The position numbers were made by a program, and so were the translations under genes. Below the pieces are notes generated by a model. It worked only from the letters and a program-made list of their open reading frames with translations, was not told the origin of the DNA and did no database searches. A stretch of DNA of 64,000 nucleotides from assembly GCA_031835245.2 (NCBI GenBank), contig JAVKOQ020000029.1, positions 186,001 through 250,000 on the forward strand. The letters run 5' to 3'. Shown here one piece after another: positions 15,573 through 18,962 of the stretch. This stretch comes from Balamuthia mandrillaris. Lineage: Eukaryota. Each line of letters opens with the position of its first letter. The stretch's first letter is position 1.

Positions 15573-18500
15573 TCACTTTGGATTATCTTTCAGAACTTGA
15601 GTGATGATACCAGCGGCAATGGTCTTGCCCTTCACCCGCAAGGTCATACGCCCCAACTGCTTAAAGTCCCTGTAAAGCTCCACACATATGGGGCTGACCG
15701 TAGTTATCTCCACCAACGCCGTCATCTTCTCCGTCAAACAACGAGGTCGGCGCTTCTTCACAGCTCCAGTGTTTTGGTCCACCACGCACAGCAGCTTGGT
15801 GATAAAAGCGGGCTCGTGCAAGCTCTGCGAGTGGAGGAGGACGTGGTAGCCACGTGTGATCGGAATATCCAGCGGGAAGACGATGATTTGGGCTTTGAAG
15901 CGAGTGCACACACGAACGGGATGCTCTGGGTCACACAGTATATTTCCGATTCTGTATGTTCAAATAGGAATGTGAGAAAAGAGGATAGAGCAGAGCAACA
16001 AGCGAGAATAGATACCTGAAGGCCGTGGCGTCAAGGCCCTGAACACCAATGTCAACGTTGGCCCCAGCAAGGGCGAAGGGAACAGGGTTCTGGTGCACGT
16101 TTATGCCTTTTACGGTGCATACTTCGTTGAGAGGCATCAACAGCAACTTAAAAAGAGAATTAAAAAAAGTTAAACTTAGTTTAAAACAAATAAATTGGTG
16201 AAACCAACCTTATCACCAACAGCCAACACTCCGGTTTCGATCTTTCCGGCGACGGTGGTGCCAAGCACGATATGTTTGTAAATGTCGGTGATGCACAGAC
16301 GAAACGGTTTCTCTATGAGGCGAGGTGCAGGGCGGAACGAATCTTTTGTACATAATGAAACACGCATATTAGCCCACCAGTAGGATTAAATGAGGAGGAA
16401 GGGAGAGAGAACCGATTCTTTCGACTAGAGTAGGACCAGAATACCAAGCAGTAAGACGAGGTTCTGACCTCTTCACCAAGTTTTCGCCTTTAAGACCGCT
16501 GATTGGGACGTAGTTAACGTTTTTCAAATTGTATCCTGCTTGCTTCAAAAAGTTAGACATCCGTTCCTGGATCAGGTTGAATCTGTCCTGAGACCAATCC
16601 ACCTAAAATAAAAAAGTGTTTAGCATTTCAGTTTGTCATTTTCTTGTTCTGTTCCCTAGTTTACAAACCTGATCCAACTGATTCACTGCAACAATCAACT
16701 GAGTGACGCCAAGACTGCGAGCCAACAAAGCGTGTTCCTTTGTCTGGCCATCCTCATCGAACCCAGCCTCAAACTCACCACCAGCCGCGTTTACCACCAA
16801 CACCGCTACATCAGCTTGAGCAGCACCGCTAATCATGTTGGGTACAAAGTCACGATGGCCTGGGGCATCCAACAATGTGATCACTTTGGTCTCAGTCTCA
16901 AAGTTGGTGACAGCAACGTCCATCGTTACTCCACGATTTCGTTCTTCCTCGTGTTCATCCAAAACCCACGCAAACGAAAATGATGACTTTCCTGTTTGTT
17001 TAAGTTAATAACAACCTTACAAAAAAAGTGATGTAACAAAGCAAACACAATTAAAGATGTAATGTACCAATATTTTTGGAGTCTCGCTCGTAGCGATGCA
17101 TGAGGCGATCTGAAACAGCTCCCAATTGATAGAGCAAGTGTCCCATGATAGTACTCTTGCCGGCGTCCACGTGACCTATAACGACCATATTCAAGTGTTC
17201 CTTCTTTCCTGCCACGTGCTTGCTTTCCTCCACCATTTTCAGCACTTCTTTCTTTCTGGCGACAGAACGTTGAGGCACCTGAACGGTCTTTTTCTTGGAT
17301 GGACTGCCTGATTCTGCTGCTTCACCTCTTCAGTAGTTTAAACAGAGGAATGAGAAATGAAGGGAATAATGAAGATAAAGAGAACAAGAAAGGAGCAGTA
17401 CTGTCGTTGTTCCTCCAAGGAGAGTTCTTGAACAGCTTTGGTAAGGGAAGAGGAAGGTTGTGGGGAGCTCGCAGCAGGAACTGTTATTGTTATGGTGGTG
17501 GCTTTATCGAGCACTGGCGCGGGTTGTTTCTGCTGCTCAACTGATAAGGCAATCACGATTTGTTAATAGAAAAAAAAAGGAGAAAGAAAATAGATTAGAA
17601 ATGAGGGAAGAGAGAGGGAAGAGAGGGAAGAGAGAAAAAGAGAGAAAGAGAGAGAATTTGGGAGAATTTGGGAGAGCGGTGAGGATGTGATTGTAATTTG
17701 GGTGATGATGAATGATGATGCTTTACTTCTTTCTTTCTTCTGTTTGAAGGCTTGCTTTCGTTTGTTGAACACGACGTCATCAGGAGAAGGCTGATCAAAG
17801 GCAAATGGCACAATGTCATGAATGGAAGGATATGTCGGTGCGAATGAAAAGGAGGAGGTTATCTCGGATAGAGATGAAGAAAGAAAGGTTGAAGGAGATA
17901 ATGAGCCAATGTTAAGTGCCAGAGTGGAAGGAGTTGCGTCTGGATTATCGCTGAAGAACGAGTAGGAAGGAAACAATCTGGAATTGCGAGAAGAAGGTAG
18001 GATGTGAAGTTGTTCTTGTTCAACCTCTTCGATAGTATCTTTCTTATCTCGTTTCTCTACTGTTTCTTCTTGCTCTTTCTCCATTTCTTCTTCCTTGTCT
18101 GGCTGTAATTGGAGAGCAAAACGCGAAGATACGTGTTGGGGGCGAGACCACTGTTGTTCATCCTGTCCCTCTTCATCCTCCTTTTCTTCTGTTTCTTCTT
18201 TTTCCTCTTCTTCCATTGGAGTGACAATAGATGCAAATCGAGATGAGGGATGGGCAGAGCGAATAGAACTTTTGTCTTCTTCCTCCTCTTCTTCGGCTAC
18301 CGTCACTGCTTCGTCTGGTTCTATTTGCACGGCAAAGCGTGAAGATGGGTGCGTAGAGCGAATAGAAATTTGAGGTTCTTCTGCTTCTTCATCTTCACCA
18401 TCATCTTCTTTATCTCCTTCTTCCATGGCATTGATGTTAAATGCAAAGCGGGAGGATGGATGGGATGAACGGAACACAACTTCCTCCTCCTCCTCCTCTT

Positions 18501-18962
18501 CTGCATTCGCTTCCTCTTCCTCTTCTTCCACTTCCTCGTCATTATTAGAGGGAATTAAGGAAGCGAAGCGAGAAGCAGAGTGAGTCGTACGAAAGGAAGT
18601 AGGTTCTTCCTCCTCTTCGTCTTCTCCTTCTTCTTTTGTGGTTTTGGAAGATGCCGGTGTCTCTTCACGTTCTACACTGGCTGATTTAGAAGAGAAACTC
18701 CGCCTTGAGCGAATGCCTGGTGGAAGAAAGGATGGATAGAAGGATGGATGAAAGTGGTAGATGGACGTGGAAAAATGTGATGGATGGGAGGAAGTTGTTG
18801 TTTGCGGAGGTAAAAGAAAGAGAAAGGGAATAGAAGGAAGACAAGGAAAGGAAAGAATGAGACAGTAAGGGAAGTGCAGTAAATGAAAAAGGTAGAGATA
18901 GGGGAAAAAAGGAGAGAAAGGCAGAAAGAAGTTGAAATATGGCCTCTGAAAGAGAGAGAGGA

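What the first reader, a model, noticed from the sequence alone, without database searches (positions are those of the whole stretch)
17727..18716. HBS1 locus appears to encode a Ski7-like isoform through a skippable 990-nt exon
Seen: both flanking introns are phase 1 and the exon is exactly 330 codons, so skipping keeps the frame (...GQK-V-EQQKQ). The exon ends with [24 protein letters not shown]. Known: a PFDFxxPSPDDIV-type motif marks the exosome-recruiting region of Ski7 and human HBS1L isoform 3, and alternative splicing of one HBS1/SKI7 gene is described in fungi, plants and animals. Inference: the same two-in-one system operates here. Skipping would give the ribosome-rescue factor; inclusion would give an exosome adaptor that retains the GTPase domain.
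Basis: partly seen in the sequence, partly recalled or inferred. Interest (0 to 1): 0.75.

Follow-up and report, generated by a model that had tools for sequence, protein, structure and literature searches.

The report
HBS1/SKI7 cassette exon with repeated motif
RNA from this protist skips a 990-base exon of the gene for the ribosome-rescue factor HBS1, and that exon encodes SKI7-type exosome-binding motifs plus five copies of an unassigned short motif shared with a distant relative, so the gene likely makes a second, mRNA-decay adaptor protein, as already known in plants, fungi and animals.

Summary
Observation confirmed. The minus-strand HBS1 gene has 11 exons. Exon 4 (18716-17727) is 990 nt, phase 1 on both sides and stop-free; skipping gives 651 aa, inclusion would give 981 aa. 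The skip junction 19038>17540 is in RNA: 4 of 4 loose-end reads in one run, plus one spliced contig. Its end aligns over three patches to the exosome-binding region of human SKI7 (E 7.7e-4). A distant metagenomic relative has the same symmetric exon, and Vermamoeba and Clastostelium have GTPase-keeping isoform pairs. So this is the known HBS1/SKI7 two-in-one gene in a likely amoebozoan; this scan met it before in three fungal genomes. Main rival: the long form reads through to a stop at 17563 and lacks the GTPase.

The parts
19600..19639 (-). Exon 1, start codon at 19639 (MSRHR...)
19431..19496 (-). Exon 2, acidic N-terminus
19038..19331 (-). Exon 3, HBS1 N-terminal domain; its donor (19037) feeds both forms
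   Evidence: Pfam HBS1_N E 2e-9; donor shown by RNA loose ends
18717..19037 (-). Intron 3, 321 nt, 83% pyrimidine, in frame and stop-free (likely incidental)
   Evidence: the matching intron of the relative is 154 nt, not a multiple of 3
17727..18716 (-). Exon 4: 990-nt symmetric phase-1 exon, skipped in all RNA seen; predicted SKI7-specific cassette; disordered in a single-sequence model except a final helix 311-328
18118..18591 (-). Array of five RxxHxxSRF motifs (R codons at 18591, 18471, 18360, 18261, 18144) separated by acidic spacers, 33-40 residues apart
   Evidence: copies differ mostly at third codon positions; R, H, S, R invariant over 10 copies from two organisms
17908..17937 (-). 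Canonical SKI7-like motif [10 protein letters not shown] (predicted RRP43/MTR3 patch)
   Evidence: Best 10-residue window of the exon under a matrix from 9 natural motifs, 0 of 1000 shuffles; aligned to human ARPSAFASTL through profile A3
17842..17865 (-). Middle patch EITSSFSF, aligned to human DLYKTF
   Evidence: weak on its own
17746..17817 (-). Patch-4-like motif and following helix [24 protein letters not shown] (predicted CSL4 and SKI2 contacts)
   Evidence: helix in model; roles by homology to PMC11540850 section 8
17541..17726 (-). Predicted intron 4, 186 nt, weak donor (A at -1); read-through meets TAA at 17565-17563 after 54 residues
   Evidence: use of this donor not shown in RNA
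15573..17540 (-). Exons 5-11: linker and HBS1 GTPase domains I-III, stop at 15575-15573
   Evidence: Introns 5-10 seen as joints in RNA; Pfam

Best explanation
This HBS1 gene is spliced to skip a 990-nt exon, giving the 651-aa ribosome-rescue GTPase, and it likely also includes the exon as a cassette in a minority of transcripts, giving a 981-aa SKI7 adaptor that would keep the GTPase. Shown: gene structure, the skip junction in RNA, protein-level constraint on the exon, and homology of its last 70 residues to the exosome-binding region of human SKI7. Inferred: a weak donor and long pyrimidine-rich flanking introns make skipping the default. On inclusion, [10 protein letters not shown] would dock at RRP43/MTR3, the [11 protein letters not shown] patch at CSL4 and the closing helix at SKI2, linking the cytoplasmic exosome to the SKI complex. 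The five RxxHxxSRF motifs in the acidic disordered region upstream most likely form a multivalent binding site for the SKI complex or another decay partner; this last step rests on position and conservation only.
For: Skip junction in 4 of 4 loose-end reads (X6) and contig X1. Both forms in frame. In a ten-codon window over the five repeats, pairwise differences by codon position were 27, 8 and 72 of 100 pairs (pairs not independent, window centred on the motif). Human SKI7 (9g8m_E) is the top PDB hit for the exon end alone (E 0.22) and for a three-sequence profile (E 7.7e-4, three patches aligned). Relative L001/L002 has a phase-1 donor, a 1173-nt stop-free exon with the same motifs, a GT directly after KQAFQQKK, and an in-frame skip; its downstream 144-nt intron has no in-frame stop, so its long form cannot end there. 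3 of 4 isoform pairs compared differ by an in-frame insert carrying a PSxLA motif and keep the GTPase: Vermamoeba 48 aa, Clastostelium 81 aa, Capsaspora 410 aa. Flanking introns are 321 and 186 nt against 62-103 for the other eight; 154 and 144 against 38-101 for the six others measured in the relative. In human the SKI-binding fragment lies just N-terminal to the exosome-binding one (PMC11540850 section 5).
Against: No read or contig shows either inclusion junction; 0 of 4 reads at the shared acceptor came from exon 4 (95% upper bound on inclusion 53%). The exon-4 donor lacks the -1 G found at 8 of 10 donors. Basidiomycetes set a precedent in which the annotated intron after the SKI7 exon is probably not real (PMC3597508 section 9). 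The fourth pair (Copromyxa) differs only at its C-terminus and has SPDD in both forms. The Capsaspora pair are NCBI gene models, not transcripts. The canonical R and F of RxxxFxxxL are replaced (T/P and L). No partner of the repeats was identified.
Confidence: 0.7

Rival explanations
1. Exon 4 is used through the 18716 acceptor but the 17726 donor is not. The reading frame runs on to TAA at 17565-17563 and gives a SKI7 of about 517 aa without GTPase, as in human HBS1Lv3 and probably basidiomycetes.
For: In-frame stop 54 residues past the donor; weak donor; no inclusion junction among 4 reads; precedent in Cryptococcus and Ustilago and human.
Against: The read-through tail is pyrimidine-rich and intron-like (76%) and unlike the relative's; the relative has a GT at the same place and no stop in its intron; no AATAAA-type signal found in 17401-17800 (four hexamers tried, signal of this lineage unknown); Vermamoeba and Clastostelium long isoforms keep the GTPase; only spliced ends were seen in bin 17538-17600, at very low depth.
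Confidence: 0.17
2. The SKI7 form starts from its own promoter or first exon inside intron 3 or exon 4 and lacks the HBS1 N-terminal domain, as in Candida albicans.
For: Precedent; intron 3 is the longest in the gene.
Against: A good in-frame acceptor at 18716 after a long pyrimidine tract, phase-matched to exon 3 here and in the relative; the first Met in the exon is at residue 97, after two repeats; amoebozoan long isoforms share the N-terminus of the short ones.
Confidence: 0.05
3. The exon is a relic or chance open frame that is not expressed.
For: Not seen in the RNA laid; no Pfam or Atlas hit.
Against: 0 of 5000 shuffles stop-free; third-position bias among repeats; conserved in a distant relative with splice phases; homology to human SKI7. 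The exon itself was never laid.
Confidence: 0.04
4. On the repeats alone: they are extra copies of the SKI7-like exosome-binding motif, not a separate motif.
For: Under a matrix from 9 natural SKI7-like motifs the five repeats rank 2-5 and 9 in the exon; each is reached by 66-258 of 5000 within-unit shuffles, and 0.5% of 1512 background 18-mers score 7.8 or more.
Against: The training pattern was drawn up after seeing these sequences. The aliphatic residue four after F is absent from the relative's copies, whereas R, H, S and R, which the SKI7-like motif lacks, are invariant. Both organisms keep a separate canonical motif.
Confidence: 0.2

Closest known systems
Plant HBS1/SKI7 locus, Arabidopsis At5g10630 and Selaginella LOC9652039 (Brunkard and Baker 2018, PMC6143672; introduction, passages and section 8 read)
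   Same: [quoted passage not shown] Selaginella variant 5 drops both motifs, as skipping does here.
   Different: [quoted passage not shown] Here one 330-codon exon holds both, plus a repeat array; no zinc finger was seen here.
Human HBS1Lv1 / HBS1Lv3 (SKI7) (PMC5389692 passages; PMC11540850 passages and sections 5, 8, 9; PDB 9g8m)
   Same: One large disordered isoform-specific exon ending in three exosome patches and a SKI2-contacting helix; alignment E 7.7e-4.
   Different: The human exon is terminal and drops the GTPase; its SKI3-binding element is one helix (451-464), not a repeat array.
Fungal SKI7/HBS1 (Marshall et al. 2013, PMC3597508; passages and section 9 read)
   Same: Two proteins from one gene; basidiomycetes skip exons to make Hbs1.
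   Different: Ascomycetes use alternative 3' splice sites with motif S3 in both forms; here the short form has neither motif, and plain read-through hits a stop.
Unpublished isoform pairs in EukProt: Vermamoeba vermiformis and Clastostelium recurvatum
   Same: Amoebozoan transcript pairs differing by an in-frame SKI7-motif insert, GTPase kept.
   Different: Inserts are 48 and 81 aa with no RxxHxxSRF array (one partial KPSHPS in Clastostelium).

Membership tests
HBS1 translational GTPase | HBS1_N domain followed by eEF1A-like domains I-III | tested here: met
   Pfam PF08938 38.2 bits (cut-off 26.4), PF00009, PF22594; 73-82% identity of exon 7 to HBS1-like proteins against 55-61% to four EF1A-like top rows
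HBS1/SKI7 alternatively spliced locus | Short isoform lacking the SKI7 motifs is expressed | tested here: met
   Skip junction in RNA
HBS1/SKI7 alternatively spliced locus | Long isoform holding the SKI7 motifs is expressed | tested here: inconclusive
SKI7 | Patch-4-like PFxFxxxSPDD motif | tested here: met
   (profile E 5.8e-13 among 1900 six-frame pieces; training set chosen on SPDD)
SKI7 | SKI7-like (RxxxFxxxL / A+PShFAahL) motif upstream of Patch 4 | tested here: met
   [10 protein letters not shown], divergent (L for F) but like Vermamoeba SPSTLAQQL and Clastostelium SPSSLAIGL
SKI7 | [quoted passage not shown] | not testable with these tools
   No exosome or SKI subunit of this organism was in hand; no complex was predicted
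HBS1/SKI7 alternatively spliced locus | No separate SKI7 paralogue supplies the function | not testable with these tools
   No genome held; only one Patch-4 hit in the 64-kb window
GTPase-less SKI7 (HBS1Lv3 type) | SKI7 exon is terminal | tested here: inconclusive
   Read-through stop exists here but not in the relative; no RNA over the donor

The most novel reading that the evidence does not exclude
A protist lineage has built into its SKI7 cassette an array of five or six copies of an undescribed short linear motif, RxxHP[SA]SRF, that acts as a multivalent docking site for the SKI complex or a ribosome-bound decay factor and is switched on and off by one splicing choice. It would be a third solution to the SKI7-SKI link, after the different yeast and human helices, and finding its receptor would name a new interface in cytoplasmic mRNA decay.
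Probability: 0.35. Interest if true: 0.62.

Novelty: new variant of a known kind. Interest (0 to 1): 0.4.

Why it matters
The two-in-one HBS1/SKI7 gene is established for animals, fungi and plants, so the headline is not new. Two things are added. First, RNA and isoform evidence that the arrangement operates in likely Amoebozoa; four searches of the held library found no such report, but Marshall et al. 2018 (PNAS), which surveys eukaryotes, could not be read and may cover it, in text or supplements. Second, a conserved tandem motif inside the cassette. How SKI7 grips the SKI complex differs between yeast and human and is unknown elsewhere; a short repeated motif kept in two distant organisms gives a direct bait for finding that partner.

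Tried and rejected
The run search listed no holder on record as RNA; the raw-read runs came by species label. X1 holds 0.40 of the sampled words against about 0.33 expected for the skip form and 0.56 for inclusion: an unlaid share, so a hint only and not counted as evidence. No genome held. Word-indexed protein searches with the exon end (84 candidates) and exon 3 (110 candidates) among longer proteins found nothing. Full HMMER search of 1.84 billion representatives with the exon gave 2 hits, both on residues 260-328 only. Pfam had no hit for the exon; ESM Atlas gave no usable hit for either exon. Repeat profiles gave no significant PDB hit (best E 0.7 and 1.1). AlphaFold on the single sequence: mean pLDDT 48.9, too poor for a fold search. 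'HPSSRF' is in 0 papers; a five-term motif search gave one unrelated paper (listing only). I first read the repeats as copies of the SKI7-like motif and lowered that after the relative showed a different conserved core. Intron 3 retention (in frame, stop-free) rejected as incidental: 83% pyrimidine and not frame-preserving in the relative. The 17325/17327 joint pair looks like a strain difference, not a second acceptor. No complex prediction was sent, as no partner sequence was in hand. Look-ups of earlier findings by place and by sequence returned nothing.

Full report
Observation. The gene lies on the minus strand from ATG 19639 to the stop at 15575-15573, in 11 GT-AG exons. Exon 4 (18716-17727) is 990 nt with phase 1 on both sides. 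Skipping gives 651 aa (GQK-V-EQQKQ); inclusion would give 981 aa; neither has an internal stop. Only one of six frames of the exon is open, and 0 of 5000 shuffles at each of four block sizes were stop-free in it. Pfam identifies HBS1_N in exon 3 and the eEF1A-like domains downstream; the cassette has no Pfam hit.

RNA. I laid four runs on 15450-17600. Introns 5-10 appear as joints. At the shared acceptor, 4 reads of X6 and the 1950-nt contig of X1 continue into letters found once in the window, at 19040, which is the 19038>17540 junction. X5 and X7 list no loose ends (30 and 6 reads laid). The contig has 401 letters upstream, matching exons 1-3 spliced (400 coding nt). So skipping is shown and is the common form. 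The runs differ from the window at scattered letters, so they are other strains or alleles.

The exon is constrained as protein. It holds five copies of RxxHxxSRF between acidic spacers. Between copies, differences fall mainly at third codon positions: 11, 4 and 48 of 70 pairs in the seven-codon core, and 27, 8 and 72 of 100 in a ten-codon window. The columns were chosen around the motif and the pairs are not independent, so this is supportive, not a formal test. A single-sequence model is disordered except for helix 311-328.

SKI7 homology. With the exon's last 61 residues, the top PDB hit among 177,635 sequences is human SKI7 (9g8m_E, E 0.22), with yeast Ski7 sixth. The only two hits among 1.84 billion representatives cover residues 260-328. 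A profile of these with the exon end finds human SKI7 at E 7.7e-4 and aligns three patches, matching the three exosome contacts in the human structure (PMC11540850 section 8). In human it is minor for exosome binding, and the upstream RxxxFxxxL motif is necessary and sufficient (PMC5389692 passages). Its counterpart here is [10 protein letters not shown], the best window of the exon under a matrix from 9 natural motifs (found in 9 of 14 upstream regions examined; pattern drawn up by me; 0 of 1000 shuffles).

Relatives. 10 of the 120 listed HBS1 homologues carry SPDD upstream of the GTPase. Of 4 isoform pairs compared, 3 differ by an in-frame insert with a PSxLA motif and keep the GTPase: Vermamoeba and Clastostelium (transcript assemblies) and Capsaspora (gene models); Copromyxa differs only at the C-terminus. 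A metagenome scan (593 pattern matches, 2 confirmed) gave two contigs that overlap by 383 identical bases, so one organism. It has a phase-1 donor, a 1173-nt stop-free exon, a GT right after KQAFQQKK and an in-frame skip; a second in-frame acceptor would give 1098 nt. Its G-domain pieces are 34 of 43 and 35 of 44 identical to the window's, about the level of any other HBS1, so it is distant. Its exon has four exact HP[SA]SRF copies (2 of 20,000 shuffles have one) and two looser ones. Over five copies from each organism R, H, S and R are invariant and F is in 9 of 10. In both organisms the introns flanking the exon are the longest measured. A midpoint-rooted tree of 30 GTPase regions (the window plus 29 chosen from the proteins held) puts the window in a 13-row non-opisthokont set (99/99) and, weakly (81/87), with Vermamoeba, Clastostelium and Phalansterium: likely an amoebozoan, not proven.

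Mechanism. Shown: skipping yields HBS1. Inferred (0.7): inclusion yields a GTPase-keeping SKI7 whose last 70 cassette residues would bind RRP43/MTR3, CSL4 and SKI2. The main rival (0.17) is read-through of the weak 17726 donor to TAA 17563, giving about 517 aa without GTPase; basidiomycetes offer a precedent (PMC3597508 section 9). Three earlier notes of this scan on fungal genomes found alternative acceptors where a cassette had been claimed, which is why I tested read-through here. The relative argues against it, since its intron has no in-frame stop and its read-through tail is unrelated. For the repeats, position matches the human SKI-binding fragment, which lies just N-terminal to the exosome-binding part (PMC11540850 section 5), and that interface differs between yeast and human (section 9). 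I therefore favour a multivalent site for the SKI complex or another decay factor (about 0.35) over extra exosome-binding copies (about 0.2; for, against); the remainder is some other or no partner. No binding was tested.

Known and new. The two-in-one locus is known in fungi, plants and animals (PMC3597508 passages and section 9; PMC6143672 introduction, passages and section 8; PMC7491326, PMC8894942 and 10.1101/617894 passages). Searches for an amoebozoan report gave 6, 0, 4 and 0 papers (5 and 3 listed). By title and abstract none is on it; of those listed I read passages of two. Marshall et al. 2018 was not held, so I saw only its citation, and it or its supplements may already cover this lineage. 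The repeat motif was not found in print, in PDB, in the Atlas, elsewhere in the window, or as a full copy in the other 137 of 139 proteins held.

Verdict. A real, RNA-supported member of a known system, with an unassigned conserved repeat array as the one new feature. New variant of a known kind; interest 0.4.

Noticed in passing
window 17563-19386 (-): Exon 3, intron 3, exon 4 and most of intron 4 form one 607-codon stop-free frame, which could lead a gene caller to merge them.
   Followed up: partly
window about 16684-16673 (-): The G4 motif reads NQLD, not the NKxD usual for translational GTPases (canonical form recalled); Vermamoeba has NQMD.
   Followed up: no
window 17253-17292: Run X6 shows a joint going back 40 bases (4 reads, 2 starts): strain duplication or library artefact.
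   Followed up: no
L001 about 1340-1365: The relative's cassette holds PPPGF, also seen in the linker of P0073 and as PPPGL in P0075; it resembles a GYF-domain ligand (recalled). Absent from the window's exon.
   Followed up: no
P0133 (Clastostelium insert): One partial copy KPSHPS upstream of the SKI7-like motif, possibly related to the repeat.
   Followed up: partly
P0133/P0013 and P0136/P0047: In Clastostelium and Capsaspora the insert ends inside SPDD, so the KQAF helix is in both isoforms, unlike here: the splice boundary has moved between lineages.
   Followed up: partly
window 8998-15471 (+): The convergent neighbour looks like a long ARM-repeat protein with WW-like and FYVE-like N-terminal motifs (by eye; names recalled).
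   Followed up: no
window 35913-38775 (+): Looks like a Nup98/96-type gene with an HFT autocleavage-like motif (by eye; recalled).
   Followed up: no
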